Of a DNA stretch of 64,000 nucleotides, positions 27,351 through 64,000 are shown piece after piece (within the stretch, counting starts at the first letter, position 1; every line of letters begins with the position of its first letter). The notes beneath the pieces are model-generated. The model worked only from the letters and a program-made list of their open reading frames with translations, searched no databases and was not told the origin of the DNA. Origin of the DNA: Eukaryota sp. GEM-RC1 (taxonomy: Eukaryota); contig JAUFOQ010000010.1 in assembly GCA_040285855.1 (NCBI GenBank), positions 930,001 to 994,000 of the forward strand, given 5' to 3'. Made by a program: the position numbers and the translations under genes.

Positions 27351-27403
27351 GTCTGCCTCATATTCTGAAGTTCATTTTTACTTCCAAACCAACTCACCCT
27401 CAA

Positions 27404-29582: not shown

Positions 29583-30767
29583 TTAGAAATAAATTCTGCT
29601 CTGGTGTAGTGATTTTAATGACTGTTGTGTTTGACTGTTGATTAAGTTCTTACGTATATAGATATCAGAAACAGATGAATTCACCGTTAAAGATTCGGCA
29701 ATTGCATTAGCACCTTCATTACCAATTGAGTTGTTAGATAGATCGATCCTAGAAACAGATGAATTCACCGTTAAAGATTCGGCAATTGCATTAGCACCTT
29801 CATTACCAATCGAGTTGTTACGTAGATCGATTGTAGAAACACAAGTATTCACCTTTAAAGCATCAGCAATTGCAATAGCGCCTTCAGAACCAATTGAGTT
29901 GATAAATAAATCGATTGTAGAAACAGAAGAATTCACCTTTAAAGCATCAGCAATTGCAATAGCGCCTTCAGAACCAATTGAGTTGTTACGTAGATCGATC
30001 CTAGAAACAGAAGAATTAACCTTTAAAGCTTCAGCAATTTCAATAGCGCCTTCAGAACCAATTGAGTTGTTCCATAGATTGATCTGAGAAACAGAAGAAT
30101 TGACCTTTAAAGCTTCAGCAATTGCAATAGCGCCTTCAGGACCAATTGAGTTGTTCCATAGATTGATCTGAGAAACAGAAGAATTCACCTTTAAAGCTTC
30201 AGCAATTGCAATAGCGCCTTCAGGACCAATTGAGTTGTTATAGAGACCGATAGTAGAAACAGATGAATTCACCTTTAAAGCTTCAGCAATTGCAATAGCG
30301 CCTTCAGGACCAATTGAGTTATTATCTAGATCGATCTCAGAACCCTCATTTCTCACCATCTCATCATAACAATTCTTCAACTTAGAGCTGAGCTTGCTCC
30401 AATCAATAACAAGTTTCTTCTCTTCAACTTGTTGTACAGGGCATAGACTTTCAATAGACTTGATTGGTAAAGGAGTGTCATCCAGAAGCCTAGCAGAAGC
30501 ACCACTGGACTCCGAATCAACGGCAACCCCTTCCTCACACTCAAAATAAATAGTCTCACCCTGACCAGCAACGAAGGCTTCAATAGCTTCTTTCAACTTG
30601 TAGTTAGGACACAGCCTTGACTTGTCCACTTCAGCTCGACAGATCGGACATCCGTCATGAGAATCAAGCCACTCCTGCAAATCCGACATACAAAATGTGT
30701 GACCACACCAAATAGTTACCGGATTCTTGAGAATTTCATGACAAATATAACAGATATAATGAGACAT
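29583..30767 (-). CDS. RING finger-LRR protein (9 LRRs); B-box-less paralog of 51184..53895
   Basis: CYICHE...CGHTFC..D...CPICR RING followed by 84-bp LRR modules and the same NSQTQQSLKSLH cap. Confidence 0.9.
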   Translation of the reverse strand: MSHYICYICHEILKNPVTIWCGHTFCMSDLQEWLDSHDGCPICRAEVDKSRLCPNYKLKEAIEAFVAGQGETIYFECEEGVAVDSESSGASARLLDDTPLPIKSIESLCPVQQVEEKKLVIDWSKLSSKLKNCYDEMVRNEGSEIDLDNNSIGPEGAIAIAEALKVNSSVSTIGLYNNSIGPEGAIAIAEALKVNSSVSQINLWNNSIGPEGAIAIAEALKVNSSVSQINLWNNSIGSEGAIEIAEALKVNSSVSRIDLRNNSIGSEGAIAIADALKVNSSVSTIDLFINSIGSEGAIAIADALKVNTCVSTIDLRNNSIGNEGANAIAESLTVNSSVSRIDLSNNSIGNEGANAIAESLTVNSSVSDIYIRKNLINSQTQQSLKSLHQSRIYF

Positions 30768-41493: not shown

Positions 41494-41505
41494 TCCTCAA
41501 CTAAA

Positions 41506-42885: not shown

Positions 42886-43995
42886 AACTTGACAATAAAT
42901 TAAGAAATTAAATAACACCAACATTGTTTTAATCTTGTTGAGACTAATTATGTACTAAAAATCTATGCTTCAAGTACTCTTTGAACGAGTTTTGTATAAT
43001 ATACATTTTGTTTAATTAATTGAACGACAATGTGATCATGTTGATACAGTCACAACATTTAAAGGGTGGTCTATTACTAGTTTTCAATAGTCCCTTTGCG
43101 AATCATAAGCACTATTGGTAGATTCTTCGAACTCAAACCATTAAAATAGAGACTTGATAGGGTGTATCAGACAGTTATTACTTACTTTTATCAGTGTCTT
43201 TTAGGGACTGTCAAATGTATATTGCAACAATACAATAATTCAATACATTCGGTTTTGAACAACATTCTTTTCTCAAGTTTTTCCTTCCAATCAGTATGAA
43301 AATTCAACAGTGTATGCGCTGTTTGTAAGTACAGTGTATTTTCTAAGAATTACAAAATGATGATTGAATGATTATTGAATAAAAAAATGAAATACAAAAG
43401 ATGATATAACATATTTTATTAAAGGTCACATGTCAGGTCAATTCATTTCATTTGAAGACCTTGACCTGAACTTTGACCTGAATTCAACAATTTGATTAAT
43501 TCTTTAACTAACGAAAATCCGTAAAAACTCAGTCAAATCTATTACTTTTTTGGATGTTTGTGCATACTATTAGTAAATTGTGTATGTTATCTAATTTTGA
43601 TCATTTAAAACAAGAAACTCACACATAAACTTTCGAATGTTGAACCTTGAGCTGACCTGACCTTTTAACAGTATTAAACTGAAAGACAGTATAATTATAC
43701 ATGTAGTTATAAGTTCATTTCATAGTATCCGATTTAAAGATCGTCTGTCGAATTATCTGAATTGAAGACGCATGTTGCTAATTTGATGGTTACGTTAATA
43801 TTAGATGGGCTTCAATAATACCTACAGTAATGTTGTTACAGTCTAACCTCTGAATAGAACCACCCCAACTACTGTCACCCCTATGTCCATGACGTGGCAA
43901 AACCCAGCTATTATAACAAGTAAAATGTCAACATAAAGTCAATCAGATGAAGAGAATCATTTGAACCTAGACTCTCCCCACCACCAAAACTAAAC

Positions 43996-45197
43996 ATGTC
44001 TCGATCTGATCTTCCCTTGAAGAGTAGTCCTTCTTTGAATGATAGTATCTCAGTTACTGACTTTGTTGAATGTGATGGTTCCTCTTCTGGTGTCTCCTCT
44101 TCGAATCTTAGTTCTGATACCTCGTCCGCTCCGTACTCTCCCACCCATTCTCCTTCCAATCACTTACACTTCCAGCAATCCATTCTCACTTTGATACATC
44201 TGCATTATCTGAGTCGTTTGTTAGAGTCATCTCTGGAATGGAACTGTCATGAGTCGTGTTCTTCTTAACTTGGAGAAAGATTTGTTTACCTTTTTCAAGA
44301 AAGTTGGCTATGTAAGCCATCATTTCTTTAAATCCGCTCTACTTGCAACCAAGATTTATCTCCAATCAAACACGTGTCATGTCATTCCTTATGACCTTCC
44401 CTCAACTCTGTTCATTTGCTTCTTTCTTTGGAGCAGAGATACATTCTGTTTTCTTACACGTATACGGGACCTTTACTGTTGAAGAATTTCTCAAGTATTA
44501 TCATATAGATTCAGGATTGGAATTGAATTTACAACATCATAATGACTTGGAGGTTCTTAACAAATATTCATTGTTATTTCCACGTCTTAAGGAACTTTAT
44601 GTTGATGTTCATCATGATCCCTCTATTTCAATGGCGTTCATCGAATTATTGAAAGAAAATACTACTGTTACAAGAATTAATCTGAGAGGCAATTCCTTTG
44701 GTGGTCAAGATGCTAGTGCTTTGGCAGATGTGTTAACAGCTAATACTACAGTTACAAGTGTTGATTTGAGTAGCAATGCTATTGGAAAGGAAGGTGTTAT
44801 AGCTTTGGCAGAGGCGCTGAAAGTCAATACTGCGATTACAAGTATTGATCTTGGTGACAACTTCATTGGAGCCGTCGGTGCTGAAGCGTTGGGAGATGCG
44901 TTAAAACATAATCATGTAGTTACAAGTATTAATCTAAGGTGGAACTCCGTTAGAGCTCATGGTGTTAGAGCATTAGCAGAGGCGTTAATAGTTAATGACT
45001 CAATTACAAGTATTAATCTCGAGAACAACTCTATTGGAGATGAAGGTGCTAGTGCTTTGGCAGAGGCGTTAAAAATTAATACTGTAGTTACAGATCTTAA
45101 TCTAAAGTACAACTCCGTTGGAAGTGAAGGTGATGGTACTCTGACAGAATCTTTAAAAGTTAACAGTCAACTCAAAATAGTGGGTGTTCGCTTTTAA
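43996..45197 (+). pseudogene. Ser-leader LRR family gene (6 LRRs) with two frameshifts
   Basis: Three consecutive ORFs (43996, 44249, 44343) in successive frames rebuild the family protein. Confidence 0.8.
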
Positions 45198-45610: not shown

Positions 45611-46750
45611 ATGAGCGACCACTTCTTTGAGTCCTCTCTACTAGCAACGAAGGTGTTTTTCCAAACAAAAACGTTCCACGTTCTTCCAAAAGACCTGCCT
45701 CAACTCTCTTCACTTGCTTCTTTCTTTGAAGCAGATCCCAAGTCCATTTTTTTACACGTGGACAAGACCTTTAATGTTGAGGACTGGATTAGTTATTCTC
45801 CTATAATCTCAGGATTAGAATTGGATTTGAAAAGCCCTAATGACTTGGAGTTTGTCAATAACCCGTTTTTGTTCTTTCCACGTGTTAAAGAACTTCACTT
45901 GCGTATTCGTCGTTCTATTTCTATGGCATCCATCGAATCATTGAAGGCCAATACTACAGTTACAAGTATTAGTCTGAGGAACAACTCTATTAATGAAGAG
46001 GGCATTGCAGCTCTAGCAGAGTTGTTAAAAGTAAATACTACAATTAAAGGTATTAATCTATGGAAAAACTCTTTTCGAGCTGAAGGTGCTAAAGTGTTGG
46101 CACGTTCATTGAAAGTTAATAATACACTTACGAGTTGTAATGTGGGTTGTAACAATATTGGAGCTGAAGGTGCTAGAGAATTTGCAAAGACATTGAAGGT
46201 TAATAAGTCAGTTACAAGATTTAGTTTCTACAACACCTCACTCGGAGCTGAAGGTGTTAGAGCTCTTGCACAGTCCTTAAAAGTAAATACTACAATTACT
46301 ACTATTGATCTGGGAGTGAACTCGCTTGGACCTGAAGGTGCTGAAACTCTGGCAGAGGCGTTGATAGTAAATACTACAATTACAAGTATTGCTCTTGAAA
46401 CGAATTATATTGGACCTGAAGGTGCTGGAGCTCTGGCAAAAGCGTTAAAAGTTAATAATAAGGTTACATTTATTAATCTAAAGGGCAACTATATTGGAGT
46501 TGACGGTGCCAGTGCTTTAGCGGAGGCGTTGAAAGTTAATTCCAAAGTTACAACTATTGTGTTGACGGACAACTTTATTAAAGATGAAGGTGCCAGTGCT
46601 TTAGCAGAGGCGTTGAAAGTCAATAGTACAATTACATGTATTAATCTGAAGTTCAATTCAATTGGAGCTGAAGGTGGTAGAGCTTTGGCAGAAACATTAA
46701 AAGTTAATACCACGGTTGAAATTGAAGGAGTTAATTATCTTGATTTGTGA
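45611..46750 (+). CDS. 5'-truncated LRR family copy (9 LRRs); possibly a pseudogene
   Basis: Duplicate of the 38663 gene; the duplication begins mid-domain, and the first ATG is internal. Confidence 0.6.
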   Translation: MSDHFFESSLLATKVFFQTKTFHVLPKDLPQLSSLASFFEADPKSIFLHVDKTFNVEDWISYSPIISGLELDLKSPNDLEFVNNPFLFFPRVKELHLRIRRSISMASIESLKANTTVTSISLRNNSINEEGIAALAELLKVNTTIKGINLWKNSFRAEGAKVLARSLKVNNTLTSCNVGCNNIGAEGAREFAKTLKVNKSVTRFSFYNTSLGAEGVRALAQSLKVNTTITTIDLGVNSLGPEGAETLAEALIVNTTITSIALETNYIGPEGAGALAKALKVNNKVTFINLKGNYIGVDGASALAEALKVNSKVTTIVLTDNFIKDEGASALAEALKVNSTITCINLKFNSIGAEGGRALAETLKVNTTVEIEGVNYLDL

Positions 46751-47460
46751 TCATGAGTTTCATAGTTTACACTTAATAAATTGGATTTACTAGTATGTCT
46801 CTAATGCTTTTAATGTACTTCTTTAGTCAATGAAAGTGTAAAAACAAGTTTATAATACTACTGTTACACTTATTAGAAGAATGACCACCTCAAATAGACG
46901 CATTCCTTTTACTGTAACAGAGAACAGATTTACGGACGGGCTTCGTTGAAAAAAGACGAACCAGAATCAACAAAAATATTCCTTCATGGAATTATTGAAT
47001 CCAAGGTCTTTGAATAACATGATTAAATTTCGATGCGATGTTGTTGTCATCTCATCTACTGATTCTTTCATTATCTTGATTTTGCACAACACCATTTACT
47101 TGGTGTTGACTGTATATCAAAAGAGGACTCCAAAGATTAGAAGTGTTTATGTAGAGAACTTTATTTTGAGCCTATTATAATGTACAAATGATTCTTGGAA
47201 TATGGAGCAAATAAATGTTCAATTATACCTGGCAAATGTCATGCTTGCAACAGTTCACTGCATCTCAAATCAAAAGAGTACTTTAAAAAGCAGTTTTTTT
47301 CCAAGATTTCTGTCCAATAGTTTTGGCAAAGAAGAGTAATACCGTATGATAGACCATGTAGTCTTCCCAGACCCAGCAAGTCTACATGACGAAGCCTCTT
47401 GATCGCCTTGTTTCTACTACTTGTAGTAGGTGAAAATCATTTTGTATCTCCTCAACTAAA

Positions 47461-48840
47461 ATGTCTCAATATGAACTTCCGCAAAACAGTAGCCGCTCTT
47501 TAGATGATACCCTTTCAGTATCTGACGTTGTAGGGTGTCATGCCACTTCCTCTTCTGATATCTCATCTTCGAATCCTAGCTCTGATTCACCGTCCTCCGC
47601 ACGCTTCTCTTATGATCATCCTCCCAATAACTTGAATGTCCAACAATCTCTACTTGTTTTGATCCATCTTCACTTTCTTGGTGAGCGGTTGAAGTCTTCT
47701 CTCAAATGGATACATCATTCACTTCGTCGTCCTCTACATTGTTTCATGGAAGATTTGCTCAAATACTTTCAAAAAGTTGGCTACGTGAGCCCCCGTTTCT
47801 TTGAATCTGTTCATTTAGCAACCAAGGTGTTTTTCCAGAGAAACACGTTTCATGTTAACCCTAAAGATCTTCCTCAACTCTCTTCGGCTGCTTCTTTCTT
47901 TGGAGCAGAGCCAAAATCCATTTTCCTGCACATACAATGGACCTTTAAAGCTGGAGAATTTCTAAATTATTCACCTTCAATTTCAGGATTGGAATTACAT
48001 TTACGGTATCATAATGACTTGGAGTTTCTTAACAAGTCTTCCTTGTACTTTCCCCGTCTTAAGCAGCTTCATGTGTGTGTTCATGGTTCTATTTATGTGG
48101 CATTTATTGAATTGTTAAAGGATAATGCTACACTTACGAGTATTGACCTGAACTCCAACTGTCCTAAAGATGAAGGTGCTAGAGCTTTAGCAGAGGCTTT
48201 GAAAGTTAACACTTCAGTTACAAGTATTAATCTGAGGGGTAACTATATTGGTGATGAAGGTGCTAAAGCATTGGCAGAGCTGTTGAAAGTAAATACTTCA
48301 GTCACAAGTATTAATCTGTATGAAAATTGCATTGAATTTGAAGGTGCTAGAGCTTTGGCAGATGCGTTAAAAATTAATAATACAGTCACAAGTATTAATC
48401 TGTGGATGAACTATATTAAAACTACAGGTGCTAGAGCTTTGGCAGAGGCGTTAAAAATTAATAATACAGTCACAAGTATTAATCTGTGTGAAAACTGTAT
48501 CGGAGCCGAAGGTGCTAAAGCTCTGGCAGATGCCTTGAAAGTTAATTCCACATTTAGAAGTATTGATCTTGGTAAGAACTCAATTGGACCTGAAGGTGCT
48601 AGAGCTTTGGCAGATGCCTTGAAAGTTAATACGTCAGTTAAAAGTATTGATCTGCAATGGAATTGTATTGGGGATGTAGGTGCTAGAGCTTTGGCAGATG
48701 CTTTAAAATTTAATGATACTGTTACTAATGTTGACCTGTTTGCAAACTCTATTGGAGATGACGCTGTTAGAGCGTTGGCAGAGGTGTTGAAAGCTAATGA
48801 GAAAATTAAAATTAGTGGTGTAAGTCAACTTAATCTTTAG
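47461..48840 (+). CDS. Ser-leader LRR family protein (8 LRRs)
   Basis: Intact 459-aa ORF, duplicate of the 41506 gene. Confidence 0.88.
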   Translation: MSQYELPQNSSRSLDDTLSVSDVVGCHATSSSDISSSNPSSDSPSSARFSYDHPPNNLNVQQSLLVLIHLHFLGERLKSSLKWIHHSLRRPLHCFMEDLLKYFQKVGYVSPRFFESVHLATKVFFQRNTFHVNPKDLPQLSSAASFFGAEPKSIFLHIQWTFKAGEFLNYSPSISGLELHLRYHNDLEFLNKSSLYFPRLKQLHVCVHGSIYVAFIELLKDNATLTSIDLNSNCPKDEGARALAEALKVNTSVTSINLRGNYIGDEGAKALAELLKVNTSVTSINLYENCIEFEGARALADALKINNTVTSINLWMNYIKTTGARALAEALKINNTVTSINLCENCIGAEGAKALADALKVNSTFRSIDLGKNSIGPEGARALADALKVNTSVKSIDLQWNCIGDVGARALADALKFNDTVTNVDLFANSIGDDAVRALAEVLKANEKIKISGVSQLNL

Positions 48841-50101
48841 AACTTGACAATAAATTAAGAAATTAAATAACACCAACATTGTTTTAATCTTGTTGAGACT
48901 AATTATGTACTAAAAATCTATGCTTCAAGTACTCTTTGAACGAGTTTTGTATAATATACATTTTGTTTAATTAATTGAACGACAATGTGATCATGTTGAT
49001 ACAGTCACAACATTTAAAGGGTGGTCTATTACTAGTTTTCAATAGTCCCTTTGCGAATCATAAGCACTATTGACATGTTCTTCGAACTCAAAACATTAAA
49101 ATATCGATCTGATTGGATGTATCAGACAGGGATTAGTTACTTTTATCAATGTCTTTTAGGGACTCTCAAATGTATATAGCAACAATGCAATAATTCAATA
49201 CATTCGGTTTTGAACAACATTCTTTTCTCAAGTATTTCCTTCCAATCAGTATGAACTGCTACTGTGATATAATGCGTTCACCTTATACGGCTTCAATGGA
49301 TTGCAGATTTCACTCATCATATGCCACATATTTTACTGTAGTGTTGTTGTCAATAAATCTTGTCAATGGAAAAAATATGCCACATATTATCATATATTGA
49401 ATTTATTTTATTTAATAATATTCCAAAATATTCAGACAACCCAAGTGAATACAATAACATGCTAAAACTTGGAATAAACATTAAACAAAGTCAATTGAAT
49501 GTTGAGAGATAGTTATAGTTTGGAGTGATCTAGATTTTGGAACAGATAGTACTTCACAATATTCAAAAGATCTTCAAACTCTATAAAATCATTACTCAAA
49601 ATGACGTTTTACAAGTCCACTGCTACCTGAATTGGACTAATAACACCCTGGAAATCCTTACAAGACAATATAAAGCCACAAAAGTCACCAAAAGTCAAAG
49701 ATCTGTTTAACCTGATTAATTCACATAAATCAATGACTGACTTATTGGAGAAACAACAAATATTCAAAGTTAGTCTCTTGATTGTGAAACATTGAGACAA
49801 GGACTTTGGTTGTGACATTGCTTCATGTAGATATATTCCAAAACTTGGGTGACAAACAAATCACACATCATATTTACCTTGTGTGATATAACCCAAGGTA
49901 AATCTAGAAGGAGCGAATCAAAAGATTGTAACCGACCCAGGCTTGGTGAAGAAGCGCTTCATAGAAACAAATGTGTTGATATTAAAAATATGATGTATTA
50001 GAGATTTAAAGGTACCTCAAACTTTGATTCAGACACAGGGGTGATACTAATACATCATCGTAGTCACATTGTGGAAGTACATTATAAGTGTTTGGAGAAA
50101 G

Positions 50102-50216
50102 AAGGAGATGGTTAAGAGCATCAGACTGTATGAGAAACAACATAGAGTTATTAAAGGAGATGGTTAAGAGCATCAGACTGTATGAGAAACAACATAGAGT
50201 TATTAAAGGAGATGGT
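50102..50216 (+). repeat. 52-bp tandem duplication
   Basis: AAGGAGATGGTTAAGAGCATCAGACTGTATGAGAAACAACATAGAGTTATTA occurs twice, plus a partial third copy. Confidence 0.9.
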
Positions 50217-51183: not shown

Positions 51184-53895
51184 ATGTCTCACTATCTCTG
51201 TGATATTTGTCATGAAATTCTCAAGAATCCGGTAACTACTTGGTGTGGCCACACCTTTTGTATGTCGGACTTGCAGGAATGGCTTGTTTCTCATAACGGA
51301 TGTCCGATCTGTCGAGCTGAAGTGGACAAGTCAAGGCTGTGTCCTAACTACAAGTTGAAAGAAGCTGTTGAAGCCTTTGTTGCTGGTCAAGGTGAGACTA
51401 TTTGTTTTGAGTGTGATGAAGCTGCTGCCACTTGTTATTGCGCAGAATGTGACGCCGATTTCTGTGACAAATGTTTTAACCCTGCTCATCGCCCCAAGTT
51501 GCTACGATCTCATGTTGCTGTCCCCCTAAATAAGAAGCATGCCTACCTTATTCCCAAGTGCCCCAGCCACAGTATGAAGTCGTTAGAGTTGTTCTGCACC
51601 TTCTGCTCCGTCGCCCTTTGCTCCACTTGTGCTTTCCTTGGTGACCATGACCAACACAAAAAGAAGTTGCTTCCCTTTGACGAAGGTCGAACCTCTGTTG
51701 AAAAGAATATCAACTCAATTAATCAAGAGTTGTCGTTAGCCATTGAAAAAATATCTCAGTCAGCTGAAGCTGCTATCCAGCAAGCAACAAGTGGTTTTGT
51801 CCAACTCAAAGAAAGTCTGACTGTCCTGCTCCAAGAAACTATGTTGGACTCTGCTACCATTATGAATGACTTACAATCTGGGAAACCTGTCATGTTCAAG
51901 CCAAAGATCAGCGAGAAATTCACTACCACCACTTCAACCCTTCTCAACAACCAATCTGATATCATCTCCTCTTTAAATGAAGAACTTTTCTCCATCCACT
52001 CCGATGCTTCTCGTCGTTTGACCTCTCTTTCTGTTGATTCGGAATCTAGTGTTGCTTCTGCTAGGCTTCTAGAAGACCCTCCTTTACCAATCAAGTGCAT
52101 TGAAAGTGTCTGCCCTGTACAACAAGTTGAAGAGAAGAAACTTGTTATTGATTGGAGCAAGCTTAGCTCTAAGTTGAAGAGTTGTTATGATCAAATGGTG
52201 AGAAATGAGGTTTCTACGATCGATCTAGGTAACAACTCAATTGGTAATGAAGGCGCTATTGCAATTGCTGAAGCTTTGAAGGTGAATTCTTCACTTTCTA
52301 GAATCGATCTAGGTAACAACTCAATTGGTACTGAAGGCGCTATTGCAATTGCTGAAGCTTTGAAGGTGAATTCTTCACTTTCTAGAATCGATCTAGGTAA
52401 CAACTCAATTGGTACTGAAGGCGCTATTGCAATTGCTGAAGCTTTGAAGGTGAATTCTTCAGTTTCTACGATTTATCTACATATCAACTCAATTGGTCCT
52501 GAAGGCGCTATTGCAATTGCTGAAGCTTTGAAGGTGAATTCTTCAGTTTCTACGATTTATCTACATATCAACTCAATTGGTCCTGAAGGCGCTATTGCAA
52601 TTGCTGAAGCTTTAAAGGTGAATTCTTCAGTTTCTCAGATCGATCTACGTAACAACTCAATTGGTCCTGAAGGTGCTATTGCAATTGCTGAAGCTTTAAA
52701 GGTGAATTCTTCAGTTTCTCAGATCGATCTACGTAACAACTCAATTGGTCCTGAAGGTGCTATTGCAATTGCTGAAGCTTTAAAGGTGAATTCTTCAGTT
52801 TCTCAGATCGATCTACGTAACAACTCAATTGGTCCTGAAGGCGCTATTGCAATTGCTGAAGCTTTAAAGGTGAATTCTTCAGTTTCTCAGATCGATCTAC
52901 GTAACAACTCAATTGGTCCTGAAGGTGCTATTGCAATTGCTGAAGCTTTAAAGGTGAATTCTTCAGTTTCTCAGATCGATCTACGTAACAACTCAATTGG
53001 TCCTGAAGGTGCTATTGCAATTGCTGAAGCTTTAAAGGTGAATTCTTCAGTTTCTCAGATCGATCTATATAACAACTCAATTGGTCCTGAAGGCGCTATT
53101 GCAATTGCTGAAGCTTTAAAGGTGAATTCTTCAGTTTCTACGATTTATCTACATATCAACTCAATTGGTCCTGAAGGCGCTATTGCAATTGCTGAAGCTT
53201 TAAAGGTGAATTCTTCAGTTTCTCAGATCGATCTACGTAACAACTCAATTGGTCCTGAAGGTGCTATTGCAATTGCTGAAGCTTTAAAGGTGAATTCTTC
53301 AGTTTCTCAGATCGATCTACGTAACAACTCAATTGGTCCTGAAGGTGCTATTGCAATTGCTGAAGCTTTAAAGGTGAATTCTTCAGTTTCTCAGATCGAT
53401 CTACGTAACAACTCAATTGGTCCTGAAGGCGCTATTGCAATTGCTGAAGCTTTAAAGGTGAATTCTTCAGTTTCTCAGATCGATCTACGTAACAACTCAA
53501 TTGGTCCTGAAGGTGCTATTGCAATTGCTGAAGCTTTAAAGGTGAATTCTTCAGTTTCTCAGATCGATCTACGTAACAACTCAATTGGTCCTGAAGGTGC
53601 TATTGCAATTGCTGAAGCTTTAAAGGTGAATTCTTCAGTTTCTCAGATCGATCTATATAACAACTCAATTGGTCCTGAAGGCGCTATTGCAATTGCTGAA
53701 GCTTTAAAGGTGAATTCTTCAGTTTCTACGATTTATCTATCTAATAACTCAATTGGTCCTGAAGGTGCTATTGCAATTGCTGAAGCTTTGAAGGTGAATT
53801 CTTCAGTTTCTACGATTTATCTATCTAATAACTCAATTAACAGTCAAACACAACAGTCATTAAAATCACTGCATAAGAATAGACTTCGTTTCTAA
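51184..53895 (+). CDS. TRIM-like protein: RING, B-box1, B-box2, helical/coiled-coil region, 20 RI-like LRRs; putative E3 ubiquitin ligase
   Basis: CDICHE...CGHTFC...CPICR (RING); CFECDE...YCAECDADFCDKCF...H...H (B-box1); CPSH...LFCTFCSVALCSTC...DH..H (B-box2); 20 x 84-bp modules from ~52210. Confidence 0.93.
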   Translation: MSHYLCDICHEILKNPVTTWCGHTFCMSDLQEWLVSHNGCPICRAEVDKSRLCPNYKLKEAVEAFVAGQGETICFECDEAAATCYCAECDADFCDKCFNPAHRPKLLRSHVAVPLNKKHAYLIPKCPSHSMKSLELFCTFCSVALCSTCAFLGDHDQHKKKLLPFDEGRTSVEKNINSINQELSLAIEKISQSAEAAIQQATSGFVQLKESLTVLLQETMLDSATIMNDLQSGKPVMFKPKISEKFTTTTSTLLNNQSDIISSLNEELFSIHSDASRRLTSLSVDSESSVASARLLEDPPLPIKCIESVCPVQQVEEKKLVIDWSKLSSKLKSCYDQMVRNEVSTIDLGNNSIGNEGAIAIAEALKVNSSLSRIDLGNNSIGTEGAIAIAEALKVNSSLSRIDLGNNSIGTEGAIAIAEALKVNSSVSTIYLHINSIGPEGAIAIAEALKVNSSVSTIYLHINSIGPEGAIAIAEALKVNSSVSQIDLRNNSIGPEGAIAIAEALKVNSSVSQIDLRNNSIGPEGAIAIAEALKVNSSVSQIDLRNNSIGPEGAIAIAEALKVNSSVSQIDLRNNSIGPEGAIAIAEALKVNSSVSQIDLRNNSIGPEGAIAIAEALKVNSSVSQIDLYNNSIGPEGAIAIAEALKVNSSVSTIYLHINSIGPEGAIAIAEALKVNSSVSQIDLRNNSIGPEGAIAIAEALKVNSSVSQIDLRNNSIGPEGAIAIAEALKVNSSVSQIDLRNNSIGPEGAIAIAEALKVNSSVSQIDLRNNSIGPEGAIAIAEALKVNSSVSQIDLRNNSIGPEGAIAIAEALKVNSSVSQIDLYNNSIGPEGAIAIAEALKVNSSVSTIYLSNNSIGPEGAIAIAEALKVNSSVSTIYLSNNSINSQTQQSLKSLHKNRLRF

Positions 53896-54463
53896 AGATA
53901 TTTTCCTCTGATATAAAGATCACCCCATTATAAGTCACACATGAACAAATATCAATGCGGTTTAGCAGTTGTTCATACACAGATTGATTTTCAGTTTTAC
54001 CCGGTAATTAAGACTCGTCATATCGAAAAGTTCATTTGCTATTGTTTTCAACAACACCACGTATTAATTGGTATCTGGAAATGATGTAACATTATACTAT
54101 ACTATACTATTATACTTATGTTTCGAAATATTTCGAATCACCGACACATTGTCTCGTCATAAACACGGTTGTATTTTTTCTCAAAAAACAGCTTAATTGT
54201 CCTTGAGTTGAGTGATGCTTTGATTATTCTCAGTGATTTATAAGATGTACAGTATCCTTTTGTATCTATTCCATAGATATTTTAGTCATGGTAATTTATT
54301 AAATATTGGTCAAAATTAGGTTGTTCGTTAGATTCTGTTTTAGTGATCTGTGATTGAATTGGAAATCTGGTCACACAATTGTCTTAACATACAAAGTAGG
54401 TTTTTGTTTATCTTAAATTGAGTTTATTATCTAACATTATCTAAGCTTCTTTTTACTGGATAT

Positions 54464-54910
54464 GTGTTCTATGAACCGGCTAGAATTTCCGATTTCTATC
54501 TACATTACAACTCAAGTGGTCCTGAAGGCGCTATTGCAATTGCAGAAGCTTTGAAGGTGAATTCTTCAGTTTCTACGATCAATCTATATTACAACTCAAT
54601 TGGTCCTGAAGGTGCTATTGCAATTGCTGAAGCTTTAAAGGTGAATTCTTCAGTTTCTCAGATCGATCTACGTAACAACTCAATTGGTAATGATGGCGCT
54701 ATTGCAATTGCTGAAGCTTTAAAGGTGAATTCTTCAGTTTCTACGATTTATCTATCTAATAACTCAATTGGTCCTGAAGGTGCTATTGCAATTGCTGAAG
54801 CTTTGAAGGTGAATTCTTCAGTTTCTACGATTTATCTATCTAATAACTCAATTAACAGTCAAACACAACAGTCATTAAAATCACTGCATAAGAATAGACT
54901 TCGTTTCTAA
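54464..54910 (+). pseudogene. Headless LRR cassette 1 (5 modules)
   Basis: Open frame from a GTG, no in-frame ATG, same C-terminal cap as the main gene. Confidence 0.75.
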
Positions 54911-55478
54911 AGATATTTTCCTCTGATATAAAGATCACCCCATTATAAGTCACACATGAACAAATATCAATGCGGTTTAGCAGTTGTTCATACACAGATT
55001 GATTTTCAGTTTTACCCGGTAATTAAGACTCGTCATATCGAAAAGTTCATTTGCTATTGTTTTCAACAACACCACGTATTAATTGGTATCTGGAAATGAT
55101 GTAACATTATACTATACTATACTATTATACTTATGTTTCGAAATATTTCGAATCACCGACACATTGTCTCGTCATAAACACGGTTGTATTTTTTCTCAAA
55201 AAACAGCTTAATTGTCCTTGAGTTGAGTGATGCTTTGATTATTCTCAGTGATTTATAAGATGTACAGTATCCTTTTGTATCTATTCCATAGATATTTTAG
55301 TCATGGTAATTTATTAAATATTGGTCAAAATTAGGTTGTTCGTTAGATTCTGTTTTAGTGATCTGTGATTGAATTGGAAATCTGGTCACACAATTGTCTT
55401 AACATACAAAGTAGGTTTTTGTTTATCTTAAATTGAGTTTATTATCTAACATTATCTAAGCTTCTTTTTACTGGATAT

Positions 55479-56093
55479 GTGTTCTATGAACCGGCTAGAA
55501 TTTCCGATTTCTATCTACATTACAACTCAAGTGGTCCTGAAGGCGCTATTGCAATTGCAGAAGCTTTGAAGGTGAATTCTTCCGTTTCTACGATCAATCT
55601 ATTTAGCAACTCAATTGGTAATGAAGGCGCTATTGCAATTGCTGAAGCTTTAAAGGTGAATTCTTCAGTTTCTCAGATCGATCTACGTAACAACTCAATT
55701 GGTAATGATGGCGCTATTGCAATTGCTGAAGCTTTGAAGGTGAATTCTTCAGTTTCTACGATTTATCTACATATCAACTCAATTGGTAATGAAGGCGCTA
55801 TTGCAATTGCTGAAGCTTTAAAGGTGAATTCTTCAGTTTCTCAGATCGATCTATCTAATAACTCAATTGGTCCTGAAGGTGCTATTGCAATTGCTGAAGC
55901 TTTGAAGGTGAATTCTTCAGTTTCTACGATCAATCTATATTACAACTCAATTGGTCCTGAAGGTGCTATTGCAATTGCTGAAGCTTTAAAGGTGAATTCT
56001 TCAGTTTCTACGATTTATCTATCTAATAACTCAATTAACAGTCAAACACAACAGTCATTAAAATCACTGCATAAGAATAGACTTCGTTTCTAA
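55479..56093 (+). pseudogene. Headless LRR cassette 2 (7 modules)
   Basis: Same structure as cassette 1, different module series. Confidence 0.75.
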
Positions 56094-56661
56094 AGATATT
56101 TTCCTCTGATATAAAGATCACCCCATTATAAGTCACACATGAACAAATATCAATGCGGTTTAGCAGTTGTTCATACACAGATTGATTTTCAGTTTTACCC
56201 GGTAATTAAGACTCGTCATATCGAAAAGTTCATTTGCTATTGTTTTCAACAACACCACGTATTAATTGGTATCTGGAAATGATGTAACATTATACTATAC
56301 TATACTATTATACTTATGTTTCGAAATATTTCGAATCACCGACACATTGTCTCGTCATAAACACGGTTGTATTTTTTCTCAAAAAACAGCTTAATTGTCC
56401 TTGAGTTGAGTGATGCTTTGATTATTCTCAGTGATTTATAAGATGTACAGTATCCTTTTGTATCTATTCCATAGATATTTTAGTCATGGTAATTTATTAA
56501 ATATTGGTCAAAATTAGGTTGTTCGTTAGATTCTGTTTTAGTGATCTGTGATTGAATTGGAAATCTGGTCACACAATTGTCTTAACATACAAAGTAGGTT
56601 TTTGTTTATCTTAAATTGAGTTTATTATCTAACATTATCTAAGCTTCTTTTTACTGGATAT

Positions 56662-57444
56662 GTGTTCTATGAACCGGCTAGAATTTCCGATTTCTATCTA
56701 CATTACAACTCAAGTGGTCCTGAAGGCGCTATTGCAATTGCTGAAGCTTTGAAGGTGAATTCTTCAGTTTCTACGATCAATCTACATAGCAACTCAATTG
56801 GTCCTGAAGGCGCTACTGCAATTGCTGAAGCTTTGAAGGTGAATTCTTCAGTTTCTACGATCAATCTACATAGCAACTCAATTGGTCCTGAAGGCGCTAT
56901 TGCAATTGCTGAAGCTTTGAAGGTGAATTCTTCAGTTTCTACGATTTATCTATCTAATAACTCAATTGGTCCTGAAGGCGCTATTGCAATTGCTGAAGCT
57001 TTGAAGGTGAATTCTTCAGTTTCTACGATCAATCTAGGTAACAACTCAATTGGTCCTGAAGGCGCTACTGCAATTGCTGAAGCTTTGAAGGTGAATTCGT
57101 TTGTTTCTTCGATTTATCTATATAACAACTCAATTGGTCCTGAAGGCGCTATTGCAATTGCTGAAGCTTTAAAGGTGAATTCTTCAGTTTCTCAGATCGA
57201 TCTACGTAACAACTCAATTGGTAATGATGGCGCTATTGCAATTGCTGAAGCTTTGAAGGTGAATTCTTCAGTTTCTACGATCAATCTACATAGCAACTCA
57301 ATTGGTCCTGAAGGTGCTATTGCAATTGCTGAAGCTTTGAAGGTGAATTCTTCAGTTTCTACGATTTATCTACATAACAACTCAATTAACAGTCAAACAC
57401 AACAGTCATTAAAATCACTGCATAAGAATAGACTTCGTTTCTAA
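56662..57444 (+). pseudogene. Headless LRR cassette 3 (9 modules)
   Basis: Same structure as cassette 1, different module series. Confidence 0.75.
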
Positions 57445-57995
57445 AGATATTTTCCTCTGATATAAAGATCACCCCATTATAAGTCACACATGAACAAATA
57501 TCAATGCGGTTTAGCAGTTGTTCATACACAGATTGATTTTCAGTTTTACCCGGTAATTAAGACTCGTCATATCGAAAAGTTCATTTGCTATTGTTTTCAA
57601 CAACACCACGTATTAATTGGTATCTGGAAATGATGTAACATTATACTATATGTTTCGAAATATTTCGAATCACCGACACATTGTCTCGTCATAAACACGG
57701 TTGTATTTTTTCTCAAAAAACAGCTTAATTGTCCTTGAGTTGAGTGATGCTTTGATTATTCTCAGTGATTTATAAGATGTACAGTATCCTTTTGTATCTA
57801 TTCCATAGATATTTTAGTCATGGTAATTTCTTAAATATTGGTCAAAATTAGGTTGTTCGTTAGTTTCTGTTTTAGTGATCTGTGATTTAATTGGAAATCT
57901 TGTCACACAATTGTCTTAACATACAAAGCAGGTTTTTGTTTATCTTAAATTGAGTTTATTATCTAACATTATCTAAGCTTCTGTTTACTGGATAT

Positions 57996-58693
57996 GTGTT
58001 CTATGAACCGGCTAGAATTTCCGATTTCTATCTACATTACAATAAATTGGTAAAGAAGGCGCTATTGCAATTGCTGAAGCTTTGAAGGTGAATTCGTCTG
58101 TTTCTACGATTGGTCTAGGTAACAACTCAATTGGTCCTGAAGGCGCTACTGCAATTGCTGAAGCTTTGAAGGTGAATTCGTTTGTTTCTTCGATTTATCT
58201 ATATAACAACTCAATTGGTCCTGAAGGCGCTATTGCAATTGCTGAAGCTTTAAAGGTGAATTCTTCAGTTTCTCAGATCGATCTACGTAACAACTCAATT
58301 GGTCCTGAAGGCGCTATTGCAATTGCTGAAGCTTTAAAGGTGAATTCTTCAGTTTCTCAGATCGATCTACGTAACAACTCAATTGGTAATGATGGCGCTA
58401 TTGCAATTGCTGAAGCTTTGAAGGTGAATTCTTCAGTTTCTACGATTTATCTACATATCAACTCAATTGGTAATGAAGGTGCTATTGCAATTGCTGAAGC
58501 TTTAAAGGTGAATTCTTCAGTTTCTACGATTTATCTACATAGCAACTCAATTGGTCCTGAAGGTGCTATTGCAATTGCTGAAGCTTTGAAGGTGAATTCT
58601 TCAGTTTCTACGATTTATCTATCTAATAACTCAATTAACAGTCAAACACAACAGTCATTAAAATCACTGCATAAGAATAGACTTCGTTTCTAA
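57996..58693 (+). pseudogene. Headless LRR cassette 4 (8 modules; 1-nt deletion in the first module)
   Basis: CATTACAATAAATTGGT replaces CATTACAACTCAATTGGT near 58040. Confidence 0.78.
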
Positions 58694-59261
58694 AGATATT
58701 TTCCTCTGATATAAAGATCACCCCATTATAAGTCACACATGAACAAATATCAATGCGGTTTAGCAGTTGTTCATACACAGATTGATTTTCAGTTTTACCC
58801 GGTAATTAAGACTCGTCATATCGAAAAGTTCATTTGCTATTGTTTTCAACAACACCACGTATTAATTGGTATCTGGAAATGATGTAACATTATACTATAC
58901 TATACTATTATACTTATGTTTCGAAATATTTCGAATCACCGACACATTGTCTCGTCATAAACACGGTTGTATTTTTTCTCAAAAAACAGCTTAATTGTCC
59001 TTGAGTTGAGTGATGCTTTGATTATTCTCAGTGATTTATAAGATGTACAGTATCCTTTTGTATCTATTCCATAGATATTTTAGTCATGGTAATTTATTAA
59101 ATATTGGTCAAAATTAGGTTGTTCGTTAGTTTCTGTTTTAGTGATCTGTGATTTAATTGGAAATCTTGTCACACAATTGTCTTAACATACAAAGTAGGTT
59201 TTTGTTTATCTTAAATTGAGTTTATTATCTAACATTATCTAAGCTTCTGTTTACTGGATAT

Positions 59262-59792
59262 GTGTTCTATGAACCGGCTAGAATTTCCGATTTCTATCTA
59301 CATTACAACTCAAGTGGTCCTGAAGGCGCTACTGCAATTGCTGAAGCTTTGAAGGTGAATTCTTCAGTTTCTACGATCAATCTAGGTAACAACTCAATTG
59401 GTCCTGAAGGCGCTACTGCAATTGCTGAAGCTTTGAAGGTGAATTCTTCAGTTTCTACGATCAATCTACATAGCAACTCAATTGGTCCTGAAGGCGCTAT
59501 TGCAATTGCTGAAGCTTTGAAGGTGAATTCTTCAGTTTCTACGATTTATCTATATAACAACTCAATTGGTCCTGAAGGCGCTATTTCAATTGCTGAAGCT
59601 TTGAAGGTGAATTCGTCTGTTTCTACGATTGGTCTAGGTAACAACTCAATTGGTCCTGAAGGTGCTATTGCAATTGCTGAAGCTTTGAAGGTGAATTCTT
59701 CAGTTTCTACGATTTATCTATCTAATAACTCAATTAACAGTCAAACACAACAATCATTAAAATCACTGCACAAGAATAGAATTCGTTTCTAA
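59262..59792 (+). pseudogene. Headless LRR cassette 5 (6 modules)
   Basis: Same structure; the cap switches from RLRF to RIRF. Confidence 0.75.
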
Positions 59793-60342
59793 AGATATTT
59801 TCCTCTGATATAAAGATCACCCCATTATAAGTTACACATGAACAAATATCAAAGCAGGTTAGCAGTTGATCTTACACAGATTGATTTTCAGTTTTACCCG
59901 GTAATTAAGATTCGTCATATCGAAAAGTTCATTTGCTATTGTTTTCAACAACACCACGTATTAATTGGTATCTGGAAATGATGTAAAATTATTCTTTTGT
60001 TTTGAAATATTTCGAATCACCGACACAATGTCTCGTTATTAACACGGTTGTATTTTTTCTCAAAAAACAGCTTAATTGTCGTTGAGTTGAGTGAGGCTTT
60101 GATTATTCTCAGTGATTTATAAGATGTACAGTATCCTTTTGTATCTATTCCATAGATATTTTAGTCATGGTAATTTATTAAATATTGGTCAAAATTAGGT
60201 TGTTCGTTAGATTCTGTTTTAGTGATCTGTGATTGAATTGGAAATCTGGTCACACAATTGTCTTAACATACAAAGTAGGTTTTTGTTTATCTTAAATTGA
60301 GTTTATTATCTAACATTATCTAAGCTTCTTTTTACTGGATAT

Positions 60343-61377
60343 GTGTTCTATGAACCGGCTAGAATTTCCGATTTCTATCTACATTACAACTCAATTGGTA
60401 AAGAAGGCGCTATTGCAATTGCTGAAGCTTTGAAGGTGAATTCGTCTGTTTCTACGATTGGTCTAGGTAACAACTCAATTGGTCCTGAAGGCGCTACTGC
60501 AATTGCTGAAGCTTTGAAGGTGAATTCTTCAGTTTCTACGATCAATCTACATAGCAACTCAATTGGTCCTGAAGGTGCTATTGCAATTGCTGAAGCTTTG
60601 AAGGTGAATTCTTCAGTTTATCAGATCGATCTACGTAACAACTCAATTGATAATGAAGGCGCTATTGCAATTGCTGAAGCTTTGAAGGTGAATTCTTCAG
60701 TTTCTACGATTTATCTACATATCAACTCAATTGGTAATGAAGGCGCTATTGCAATTGCTGAAGCTTTGAAGGTGAATTCTTCAGTTTCTCAGATCGATCT
60801 ACGTAACAACTCAATTGATAATGAAGGTGCTATTGCAATTGCTGAAGCTTTGAAGGTGAATTCTTCAGTTTCTACGATTTATCTACATATCAACTCAATT
60901 GGTAATGAAGGCGCTATTGCAATTGCTCAAGCTTTGAAGGTGAATTCTTCAGTTTCTACGATTTATCTACATAGCAACTCAATTGGTCCTGAAGGCGCTA
61001 TTGCAATTGCTGAAGCTTTAAAGGTGAATTCTTCAGTTTCTCAGATCGATCTACGTAACAACTCAATTGATAATGAAGGCGCTATTGCAATTGCTGAAGC
61101 TTTGAAGGTGAATTCTTCAGTTTCTACGATTTATCTATCTAATAACTCAATTGGTCCTGAAGGCGCTATTGCAATTGCTGAAGCTTTGAAGGTGAATTCT
61201 TCAGTTTCTACGATTTATCTATCTAATAACTCAATTGGTCCTGAAGGTGCTATTGCAATTGCTGAAGCTTTGAAGGTGAATTCTTCAGTTTCTACGATTT
61301 ATCTATCTAATAACTCAATTAACAGTCAAACACAACAATCATTAAAATCACTGCACAAGAATAGAATTCGTTTCTAA
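60343..61377 (+). pseudogene. Headless LRR cassette 6 (12 modules)
   Basis: Same structure; contains SIDNEG variants. Confidence 0.75.
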
Positions 61378-61928
61378 AGATATTTTCCTCTGATATAAAG
61401 ATCACCCCATTATAAGTTACACATGAACAAATATCAAAGCAGGTTAGCAGTTGATCTTACACAGATTGATTTTCAGTTTTACCCGGTAATTAAGATTCGT
61501 CATATCGAAAAGTTCATTTGCTATTGTTTTCAACAACACCACGTATTAATTGGTATCTGGAAATGATGTAAAATTATTCTTTTTGTTTTGAAATATTTCG
61601 AATCACCGACACAATGTCTCGTTATTAACACGGTTGTATTTTTTCTCAAAAAACAGCTTAATTGTCGTTGAGTTGAGTGAGGCTTTGATTATTCTCAGTG
61701 ATTTATAAGATGTACAGTATCCTTTTGTATCTATTCCATAGATATTTTAGTCATGGTAATTTATTAAATATTGGTCAAAATTAGGTTGTTCGTTAGATTC
61801 TGTTTTAGTGATCTGTGATTGAATTGGAAATCTGGTCACACAATTGTCTTAACATACAAAGTAGGTTTTTGTTTATCTTAAATTGAGTTTATTATCTAAC
61901 ATTATCTAAGCTTCTTTTTACTGGATAT

Positions 61929-62543
61929 GTGTTCTATGAACCGGCTAGAATTTCCGATTTCTATCTACATTACAACTCAAGTGGTCCTGGAGGCGCTATT
62001 GCAATTGCTGAAGCTTTGAAGGTGAATTCTTCAGTTTCTACGATCAATCTACATAGCAACTCAATTGGTCCTGAAGGCGCTACTGCAATTGCTGAAGCTT
62101 TGAAGGTGAATTCTTCAGTTTCTACGATTTATCTATCTAATAACTCAATTGGTCCTGAAGGCGCTATTGCAATTGCTGAAGCTTTGAAGGTGAATTCTTC
62201 AGTTTCTACGATTTATCTATCTAATAACTCAATTGGTCCTGAAGGCGCTATTGCAATTGCTGAAGCTTTGAAGGTGAATTCTTCAGTTTCTACGATTTAT
62301 CTATCTAATAACTCAATTGGTCCTGAAGGTGCTATTGCAATTGCTGAAGCTTTGAAGGTGAATTCTTCAGTTTCTACGATTTATCTACATAGCAACTCAA
62401 TTGGTCCTGAAGGTGCTATTGCAATTGCTGAAGCTTTGAAGGTGAATTCTTCAGTTTCTACGATTTATCTATCTAATAACTCAATTAACAGTCAAACACA
62501 ACAATCATTAAAATCACTGCACAAGAATAGAATTCGTTTCTAA
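61929..62543 (+). pseudogene. Headless LRR cassette 7 (7 modules)
   Basis: Same structure as the other cassettes. Confidence 0.75.
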
Positions 62544-63093
62544 AGATATTTTCCTCTGATATAAAGATCACCCCATTATAAGTTACACATGAACAAATAT
62601 CAAAGCAGGTTAGCAGTTGATCTTACACAGATTGATTTTCAGTTTTACCCGGTAATTAAGATTCGTCATATCGAAAAGTTCATTTGCTATTGTTTTCAAC
62701 AACACCACGTATTAATTGGTATCTGGAAATGATGTAAAATTATTCTTTTGTTTTGAAATATTTCGAATCACCGACACAATGTCTCGTTATTAACACGGTT
62801 GTATTTTTTCTCAAAAAACAGCTTAATTGTCGTTGAGTTGAGTGAGGCTTTGATTATTCTCAGTGATTTATAAGATGTACAGTATCCTTTTGTATCTATT
62901 CCATAGATATTTTAGTCATGGTAATTTATTAAATATTGGTCAAAATTAGGTTGTTCGTTAGATTCTGTTTTAGTGATCTGTGATTGAATTGGAAATCTGG
63001 TCACACAATTGTCTTAACATACAAAGTAGGTTTTTGTTTATCTTAAATTGAGTTTATTATCTAACATTATCTAAGCTTCTTTTTACTGGATAT

Positions 63094-63540
63094 GTGTTCT
63101 ATGAACCGGCTAGAATTTCCGATTTCTATCTACATTACAACTCAAGTGGTCCTGAAGGCGCTATTGCAATTGCTGAAGCTTTGAAGGTGAATTCTTCAGT
63201 TTCTACGATCAATCTACATAGCAACTCAATTGGTCCTGAAGGCGCTACTGCAATTGCTGAAGCTTTGAAGGTGAATTCTTCAGTTTCTACGATCAATCTA
63301 CATAGCAACTCAATTGGTCCTGAAGGCGCTATTGCAATTGCTGAAGCTTTGAAGGTGAATTCTTCAGTTTCTACGATTTATCTATCTAATAACTCAATTG
63401 GTCCTGAAGGTGCTATTGCAATTGCTGAAGCTTTGAAGGTGAATTCTTCAGTTTCTACGATTTATCTATCTAATAACTCAATTAACAGTCAAACACAACA
63501 ATCATTAAAATCACTGCACAAGAATAGAATTCGTTTCTAA
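63094..63540 (+). pseudogene. Headless LRR cassette 8 (5 modules)
   Basis: Same structure as the other cassettes. Confidence 0.75.
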
Positions 63541-64000
63541 AGATATTTTCCTCTGATATAAAGATCACCCCATTATAAGTTACACATGAACAAATATCAA
63601 AGCAGGTTAGCAGTTGATCTTACACAGATTGATTTTCAGTTTTACCCGGTAATTAAGATTCGTCATATCGAAAAGTTCATTTGCTATTGTTTTCAACAAC
63701 ACCACGTATTAATTGGTATCTGGAAATGATGTAAAATTATTCTTTTGTTTTGAAATATTTCGAATCACCGACACAATGTCTCGTTATTAACACGGTTGTA
63801 TTTTTTCTCAAAAAACAGCTTAATTGTCGTTGAGTTGAGTGAGGCTTTGATTATTCTCAGTGATTTATAAGATGTACAGTATCCTTTTGTATCTATTCCA
63901 TAGATATTTTAGTCATGGTAATTTATTAAATATTGGTCAAAATTAGGTTGTTCGTTAGATTCTGTTTTAGTGATCTGTGATTTAATTGGAAATCTGGTCA

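What the first reader, a model, noticed from the sequence alone, without database searches (positions are those of the whole stretch)
52210..63540. Variation in the 84-bp modules is focused on predicted concave-face residues and assorts like interchangeable half-modules
Seen: the scaffold NSIG.EGA.AIAEALKVNSS is almost invariant even at synonymous sites. The segment S[T/Q/R/S]I[Y/N/D/G]L[H/S/R/Y/G/F][I/S/N/Y]N varies by multi-nucleotide codon changes. Left halves (TIY, TIN, TIG, TID, QID, RID, SIY) and right halves (HI, HS, HN, SN, RN, YN, YY, GN, FS) recur in different pairings across the invariant CTA (Leu) codon. A third slot (P/N/T/K then E/D) also assorts. Established: the x positions of xxLxLxxN form the ligand-binding beta-sheet of LRR solenoids. 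Inference: concerted evolution of the scaffold combined with diversifying selection or sub-module recombination produces a small residue code, conceptually like TALE RVDs.
Basis: partly seen in the sequence, partly recalled or inferred. Interest (0 to 1): 0.75.

Follow-up and report, generated by a model that had tools for sequence, protein, structure and literature searches.

The report
TRIM-LRR ligase with spare recognition tails
A gene for a predicted ubiquitin ligase, probably from a free-living protist, ends in 20 near-identical leucine-rich repeats that differ mainly at four residues of the predicted binding face, and is followed by at least eight headless copies of its tail that likely act as spare parts for recombining new binding surfaces.

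Summary
Observation confirmed; interpretation partly supported. The 79 modules belong to one intact RING/B-box/B-box/coiled-coil (TRIM-like) gene with 20 RI-type LRRs, plus eight or more headless tail cassettes, each with its own cap, stop and 3' flank. Variation is concentrated at codons 3, 5, 7 and 8 (pN 0.37 against 0.013 in the scaffold; 15 replacement steps, 4.8 times the synonymous rate), on and just after the predicted beta-strand. Left and right halves are each tree-like but not together (9+10 against 26 steps, best split at CTA), so exchange across the Leu codon is supported. But halves stay linked (16 pairings, 27 if free), breakpoints occur all along the module, three scaffold synonymous sites segregate at about 40%, and nothing supports a TALE-like code. 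This pattern is published for fungal HET-E WD40 repeats, down to shuffled codon pairs. What I could not find described is the TRIM-LRR fusion and the downstream orphan-tail array: any in-register crossover would give the gene a new complete tail. Whether the cassettes are selected donors or debris is untested: no genome, reads or alleles were available. New variant of a known kind.

The parts
51184..53895 (+). Intact 903-aa TRIM-like gene: RING/U-box (aa 6-43), B-box 1 (74-111), B-box 2 (124-160), long helices 165-231 and 244-282, disordered linker, 20 LRR modules, cap
   Evidence: ORF, Pfam, AlphaFold model of the head, profile hits to TRIM28, TRIM25, TRIM3
52210..53895 (+). LRR array of the gene: 20 modules of 84 bp; modules 5-11 and 12-18 are an exact 588-bp duplicate
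53896..54484 (+). Non-coding 3' flank/spacer, repeated after every cassette; no other copy in the window
54485..54910 (+). Headless cassette 1 (junction module, 3 modules, cap module, stop); identical to the gene's 3' end over 888 bp around the cap
55500..56093 (+). Headless cassette 2 (7 modules)
56683..57444 (+). Headless cassette 3 (9 modules)
58017..58693 (+). Headless cassette 4 (8 modules; 1-bp deletion in the junction module)
59283..59792 (+). Headless cassette 5 (6 modules); first cassette with the B-type cap and flank
60364..61377 (+). Headless cassette 6 (12 modules)
   Evidence: folded
61950..62543 (+). Headless cassette 7 (7 modules)
63115..63540 (+). Headless cassette 8 (5 modules)
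63541..64000 (+). Ninth copy of the spacer, cut by the window end; more cassettes may follow
29583..30767 (-). Paralog: RING + linker + 8 LRR modules + cap module, B-boxes and coiled coil deleted; no copy of the spacer behind it

Best explanation
This is a TRIM-like gene whose LRR tail is likely a variable substrate-recognition surface of a ubiquitin ligase, likely diversified by selection on four residues per repeat and by ordinary homologous recombination among near-identical repeats, with the downstream headless cassettes likely feeding it ready-made tails and repeat variants. Shown: domain order, concentration of replacement changes at codons 3, 5, 7, 8, mosaic modules and arrays, cassettes without in-frame ATG but with open frame, cap, stop and 3' flank. 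Follows from the anatomy: all modules share one 84-bp register, so any in-register crossover between the gene and a cassette yields a complete in-frame gene with a new tail, and the reciprocal product is a new cassette; short conversion tracts swap parts of modules. Inferred: E3 activity, a defence role (tagging foreign proteins of viruses or intracellular bacteria), and that cassette sequence has actually entered the expressed gene. No dedicated switching machinery is needed or seen.
For: Domains. Selection signal: pN 0.369 / pS 0.137 at codons 3, 5, 7, 8 against 0.013 / 0.087 in the scaffold; 15 replacement steps on 9.4 sites against 7 synonymous steps on 20.9 sites, ratio 4.8, binomial P 0.0004 (steps read by hand, test). 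Same peaks (2.6, 2.2, 3.3, 1.5 bits) in 55 modules of 11 relatives. Heads 98-99% identical carry almost disjoint repeat codes: gene vs P0018 share 0 of 6, P0001 vs P0010 share 1 of 7 and 5. Recombination: four-gamete failures 0 of 15 site pairs within left, 1 of 10 within right, 14 of 30 across; parsimony 9+10 vs 26 steps, best split at CTA, excess 6 when singleton pairings are dropped; excess at most 4 in 150 of 150 no-recombination simulations. Turnover: gene, cassette 1 and cassette 2 have identical 670-bp cap+spacer yet 20, 5 and 7 modules of different content; arrays share exact tracts of up to 212 nt; similarity to the gene's 3' end falls with distance (729, 705, 263, 493, 17, 17, 17, 17 bp). 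Reservoir: 10 of 13 cassette pairings are absent from the gene; 0 of 51 regular cassette modules has a stop; a single crossover could give 700 distinct code strings.
Against: No direction of transfer can be read from one haplotype; cassette 1 being identical to the gene's end fits copying out of the gene as well as into it. Private changes in regular cassette modules are 5 replacement and 0 synonymous (read), as expected for untranslated DNA, and with so few changes the absence of stops is not evidence of selection. The scaffold's own deficit of replacement steps is not significant (8 vs 5, P 0.25). The in-window paralog has no cassettes, and whether other paralogs do is unknown. The gene's own array is low in diversity (10 of 20 modules are QID-RN), which looks like recent slippage rather than sampling from cassettes. 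The sixth RING ligand is Asp29, not Cys. The side-chain direction of the x residues was not measured on the model; it rests on established LRR geometry. dN/dS on recombining repeats is not a clean test.
Confidence: 0.6

Rival explanations
1. The gene is a HET-E-like variable receptor, but the cassettes are inert debris: one duplication of the gene's 3' end, amplified by unequal crossover, that receives sequence and returns none that matters.
For: Seen at one locus only; private cassette changes look neutral; junction modules are degenerate, one is frameshifted; the window is full of tandem duplicates and broken LRR genes. Podospora pseudogenes keep intact WD repeats simply through concerted evolution (PMC1805685, passages).
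Against: At least 8 copies persist in two flank classes 19 substitutions apart, so the array is not one recent burst; every cassette keeps register, cap and stop, so exchange into the gene is hard to avoid mechanically; three cassette code types recur in relatives P0017, P0018, P0077.
Confidence: 0.22
2. A programmed, high-rate, one-way conversion system (vlsE- or VLR-like) copies segments from archival cassettes into the gene, with a preferred joint at the CTA codon.
For: One complete gene beside contiguous silent cassettes; the largest parsimony excess is across CTA (7, against 2-4 at four other block boundaries).
Against: Cassettes are themselves mosaics of each other and vary in length, so they are not a fixed archive; same-strand layout, unlike the head-to-head vls locus (PMC11499132, abstract); no notable flanking repeat; 41-44% of detectable crossovers would be scored at CTA by default, and with an assumed 5-7 events the excess is marginal (P 0.01-0.13).
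Confidence: 0.07
3. The cassettes are alternative last exons, spliced from the AAG|GTGAAT in a module to the CTAAC...AAG just upstream of a cassette.
For: Both sites are phase 0 and the join is in frame with 13 open codons before the junction module; spliced LRR units are known in brown algae and Tetrahymena.
Against: The same loose motif occurs 14 more times on the + strand of the rest of the window; no intron was seen in the window's LRR genes (breaks look like small frameshifts); the join would insert 9 extra residues and must outrun each upstream stop and 3' end.
Confidence: 0.05
4. The mixed left/right pairings are made by short-read polishing of a repetitive long-read assembly.
For: The genomes of the named relatives were long-read assemblies corrected with Illumina reads (10.1101/2023.05.03.539051, passage); 5 of 16 pairings are singletons.
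Against: Excess of 6 steps remains among the 11 pairings seen twice or more; multi-module tracts recur exactly in separate cassettes; relatives at other loci also reuse right halves with different left halves.
Confidence: 0.04
5. The variable residues are a TALE-like code, one module per nucleotide or residue of a linear ligand.
For: Near-identical repeats with few variable residues; a small recurring alphabet.
Against: RI-type fold whose closest solved relatives are protein binders or scaffolds; four to five variable positions, not two; alphabets differ between paralogs. TALE features are recalled, not from a call.
Confidence: 0.02

Closest known systems
Podospora HNWD family (het-D, het-E, het-R) and other fungal NLRs with high-internal-conservation repeats
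   Same: Concerted evolution of repeats, four codons per repeat under diversifying selection at the binding surface, variable repeat number, chimeric repeats; nine new residue combinations arose by shuffling parental codon pairs (PMC1805685 abstract and passages; PMC2873952 section 10; PMC4986451 passages).
   Different: LRR rather than WD40/ANK/TPR (fungal NLRs had no LRR in PMC4986451); no NACHT/NB-ARC, a TRIM head instead; the selected codons are packed in 18 bp; an adjacent array of headless tails.
TRIM/RBCC ubiquitin ligases
   Same: RING, two B-boxes, long helix and return helix in TRIM order.
   Different: C-terminal RI-type LRR array. A family-wide survey has no occurrence of 'LRR' or 'leucine' and reports only MATH-type TRIMs outside animals (PMC3503706, abstract and word search); 0 of 146 further head relatives carried two or more RI-like motifs.
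Orphan C-terminal modules of Rhs polymorphic toxin loci
   Same: Closest layout: fragments downstream of a main gene, lacking translation start, brought into use by recombination with the main gene (PMC3967940, abstract).
   Different: Bacterial toxin tips with immunity genes; here homologous sensor tails in a eukaryote, and the homology is the variable repeat itself, so many junctions are possible.
Borrelia vls locus
   Same: One expression site and contiguous silent cassettes about 90% identical (PMC11499132, abstract).
   Different: vls is head-to-head, unidirectional and serves immune evasion; these cassettes are same-strand, carry their own 3' end and reshuffle among themselves.
Ectocarpus ROCO LRRs, Tetrahymena 90-bp LRR exons, jawless-fish VLRs
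   Same: LRR units shuffled, concave-face sites selected, non-coding LRRs proposed as a reservoir (PMC3341825 passages; PMC6564038 passages; VLR assembly recalled).
   Different: Those units are exons or germline cassettes filling an incomplete gene; here the gene is complete and intronless and the spare units are whole tails.

Membership tests
TRIM/RBCC | N-terminal RING followed by one or two B-boxes | tested here: met
   Pfam RING aa 6-43, B-boxes 74-111 and 124-160; sixth ligand is Asp
TRIM/RBCC | Coiled coil after the B-boxes | tested here: met
   Helices 165-231 and 244-282 in the model; profile covers RING to coil of TRIM28 and TRIM25, E 4e-22 and 1e-20; Pfam TRIM_CC did not hit
TRIM/RBCC | E3 ligase activity and antiparallel dimer | not testable with these tools
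   Activity needs an assay; dimer prediction was not run
RI-like LRR | 28-residue repeat, LxxLxLxxNxL strand plus helix | tested here: met
   Model pLDDT 90.5, strand at module residues 3-5, helix 12-25; TM 0.87-0.90 to ribonuclease inhibitors 4per_A, 2bex_B
HNWD/HIC-type diversifying repeat receptor | Near-identical repeats, few selected surface codons, chimeric repeats, variable number | tested here: met
HNWD/HIC-type diversifying repeat receptor | STAND NTPase (NACHT/NB-ARC) domain | tested here: not met
   No such Pfam hit; works like, is not, an NLR
HNWD/HIC-type diversifying repeat receptor | Polymorphism among isolates and a non-self recognition phenotype | not testable with these tools
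   No genome, runs or related loci
vls-type silent-cassette system | One expression site with contiguous silent cassettes | tested here: met
   (silence inferred from lack of in-frame ATG)
vls-type silent-cassette system | Head-to-head layout with inverted repeat between | tested here: not met
   Same strand, tandem
vls-type silent-cassette system | Unidirectional segmental conversion from stable cassettes | tested here: inconclusive
   Cassettes are mosaics of each other; direction unreadable from one haplotype
Orphan-tail (Rhs-like) locus | Downstream startless C-terminal modules with homology to the main gene | tested here: met
Orphan-tail (Rhs-like) locus | Toxin tip and immunity gene; observed recombination into the main gene | tested here: not met
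   Tails are LRRs, spacer has no matching gene; recombination into the gene not observable here
TALE | 34-aa helical repeats with two adjacent variable residues reading DNA (recalled) | tested here: not met
   28-aa beta/alpha LRR with 4-5 variable positions
Diversity-generating retroelement | Adenine-only changes, template repeat, reverse transcriptase (recalled) | tested here: not met
   Changes involve A, C and G sites; no RT hit among the 19 window ORFs scanned

The most novel reading that the evidence does not exclude
A free-living unicellular eukaryote keeps, by selection, a library of silent LRR tails behind a TRIM ubiquitin ligase and uses it to generate new degradation specificities at high rate within clonal populations: an anticipatory intracellular immune receptor, convergent with VLRs and orphan Rhs tips.
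Probability: 0.25. Interest if true: 0.85.

Novelty: new variant of a known kind. Interest (0 to 1): 0.6.

Why it matters
How free-living protists recognise viruses and intracellular bacteria is largely open. This locus joins a TRIM-type effector head to a rapidly reshuffled LRR surface, a pairing I did not find in print, and puts a measurable reservoir next to it, so rate and direction of diversification can be tested by long-read amplicon sequencing of clones. The natural alphabet on a constant 28-residue scaffold is also a ready template for repeat-protein binders.

Tried and rejected
No whole genome is held, so cassettes at other paralogs and beyond 64000 could not be checked. Sequencing runs: none was listed, so no reads were laid. 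Metagenome scan: 65 pattern matches, none a relative. No fused form above 1581 aa other than one weak animal hit (weak evidence). The 903-aa protein and three shorter starts are not in the protein collection by exact match, so its annotation is unknown. The protein atlas gave no answer. Earlier scan notes: nothing in three look-ups. Foldseek of the head gave only local RING matches, model pTM 0.43. SPRY in sister TRIM tails looked plausible by eye but Pfam did not find it in 5 of 5. A complex prediction was not run. Rejected: DGR-type mutagenesis, TALE-like code, free assortment of halves, a proven hotspot at CTA. Literature searches that found no description of a TRIM-LRR fusion or of this array: (listings only, open-licence library); the skoliomonad genome preprint has 0 occurrences of 'LRR' or 'leucine' in its main text; its supplements were not seen and could list domain expansions.
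Full report
What is there. The region is the 3' part of one intact 903-codon gene (51184-53895, +) and eight further units. The gene encodes a RING/U-box, two B-boxes, two long helices at 165-231 and 244-282, a low-confidence linker and 20 LRR modules of 84 bp ending in a cap. A profile of 24 heads matches TRIM28, TRIM25 and TRIM3 from RING to coiled coil. Each following unit is a degenerate junction module, 3 to 10 regular modules, a cap module, the same stop and about 590 bp of the same 3' flank. None of the 8 has an in-frame ATG between the upstream stop and the junction. The window ends inside a ninth spacer. The closest named relatives are proteins of Eukaryota sp. GEM-RC1 (63-81% over the head), a skoliomonad metamonad (10.1101/2023.05.03.539051, passages and section 5); more distant heads come from GEM-RC1 and TZLM1-RC (9 of 10 looked up). 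The window is therefore probably from a skoliomonad (inference).

Observation check. In 62 internal modules, codons 3, 5, 7, 8 have pN 0.369 and pS 0.137; the 23 scaffold codons have pN 0.013 and pS 0.087. Counting minimal steps per codon (split into replacement and synonymous by hand), the four codons carry 15 replacement steps on 9.4 sites, against 7 synonymous steps on 20.9 sites over 27 codons (codon 13 left out): ratio 4.8, P 0.0004; against scaffold replacements P 1e-7. The scaffold's own constraint is not significant by this count (P 0.25). The same positions peak in 55 modules of 11 relatives, while in 62 modules of ten older LRR genes of the window variation is spread more widely.

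Structure. A single-sequence model of cassette 6 has pLDDT 90.5, strands at module residues 3-5 (sometimes to 8) and helices at 12-25, and superposes on ribonuclease inhibitors with TM up to 0.90. V1-I4-L6-N9-I11 give LxxLxLxxNxL, so 3, 5, 7, 8 are the exposed strand and turn positions of the concave face by established LRR geometry; I could not measure side-chain direction. Position 2, also an x, hardly varies; position 13 is at the helix start.

Recombination. Four-gamete failures: 0 of 15 pairs within the left half, 1 of 10 within the right, 14 of 30 across; Hudson-Kaplan minimum 5 over the module. Parsimony on 71 modules: left 9 steps with no homoplasy, right 10, together 26; the best split of ten lies at CTA; 2 of 60 random column partitions did as well; the excess is 6 for the 11 pairings seen at least twice. 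A simple no-recombination simulation gave an excess of at most 4 in 150 of 150 runs. So halves do exchange. They are not freely interchangeable: 16 pairings against 27. CTA is the only conserved island in the variable zone, and 41-44% of detectable crossovers would be scored there by default; the excess there (7) is larger than at four other boundaries (2, 4, 2, 2), but a hotspot is only suggested (P 0.01-0.13 for assumed counts). A greedy copy parse builds each cassette from 2 to 14 pieces of the other arrays, with breaks at many registers.

Array dynamics. The cap+spacer falls in two classes 19 substitutions apart, all 19 in the first 378 of 670 columns (P 2e-5 if uniform), so the spacer is itself a mosaic. 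The gene, cassette 1 and cassette 2 have identical spacers but 20, 5 and 7 modules: repeat content turns over faster than point mutation. Array ends are conserved: GGT at codon 15 in 9 of 9 penultimate modules against 14 of 53 others, TIY-SN last in 8 of 9, as unequal crossover would leave. The gene has an exact 7-module duplication and private 5' modules. Relatives with 98-99% identical heads share 0 or 1 code types.

Mechanism. Shown: anatomy, focused replacement change, mosaic modules and arrays. Deduced: because every cassette is in register and complete at its 3' end (0 of 51 regular modules with a stop), one crossover gives the head a new whole tail, with 700 possible code strings of 2 to 30 modules. 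Inferred: the protein is a ubiquitin ligase that recognises changing foreign targets, and the cassettes supply variants; they hold 10 pairings the gene lacks. Against: one haplotype gives no direction, private cassette changes look neutral, the in-window paralog has no cassettes, and the gene's array is dominated by one recently amplified module.

Comparison. LRR shuffling with a proposed non-coding reservoir is described in Ectocarpus (PMC3341825, passages) and LRR exon recombination in Tetrahymena (PMC6564038, passages). The layout is closest to orphan Rhs tails (PMC3967940, abstract), less to vls (PMC11499132, abstract). It is not an NLR, TALE, DGR or vls member. A TRIM with an LRR tail was not found in the family survey (PMC3503706, abstract and word search), in nine literature searches, or among 146 further head relatives; these searches cover open-licence papers and the best 150 of 4565 hits only.

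Verdict. Real feature, known evolutionary signature, unusual carrier and layout. New variant of a known kind; interest 0.6.

Noticed in passing
window 13228-48840: Cluster of about ten further RI-type LRR genes with a shared non-LRR N-terminal region and no other Pfam hit in the three scanned; some look frameshifted (27341-28728, 31661-32823, 43996-45197).
   Followed up: partly
window 39388-43300 and 46009-49255: Recent tandem duplication carrying two LRR genes, 96-97% identical.
   Followed up: no
window 29583-30767 (-): Paralog with an in-frame deletion of both B-boxes and the coiled coil, leaving RING + linker + LRR; its modules are 5-11 nt from the nearest array module and share right halves in 3 of 8, left halves in 0 of 8.
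   Followed up: partly
window 51184-51315: The RING has Asp at the sixth zinc-ligand position (C-x2-D) in this gene and its close paralogs.
   Followed up: no
P0137-P0152: Skoliomonads have an expanded TRIM-like family with other, unassigned C-terminal domains; also BTB-LRR (P0059) and kinase-LRR (P0021) fusions with similar repeats.
   Followed up: partly
window 26559-26924 and 37584-38378: Two related ORF fragments that look by eye like the C-terminal end of a non-LTR retroelement protein (recalled resemblance); no Pfam hit.
   Followed up: partly
window 28999-29070 (-): tRNA-Asp(GTC) gene 500 bp downstream of the paralog.
   Followed up: no
window 3914-8003: Two BTB ORFs (-) with a 329-bp duplicate flanking a four-RRM gene (5622-7256, +).
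   Followed up: no
window 50102-50216: Exact 52-bp tandem duplication about 1 kb upstream of the gene.
   Followed up: no
window 54431-54445 and the same place in each spacer: Branch-point-like CTAAC followed by AAG in frame with the cassette; chance level not excluded.
   Followed up: partly
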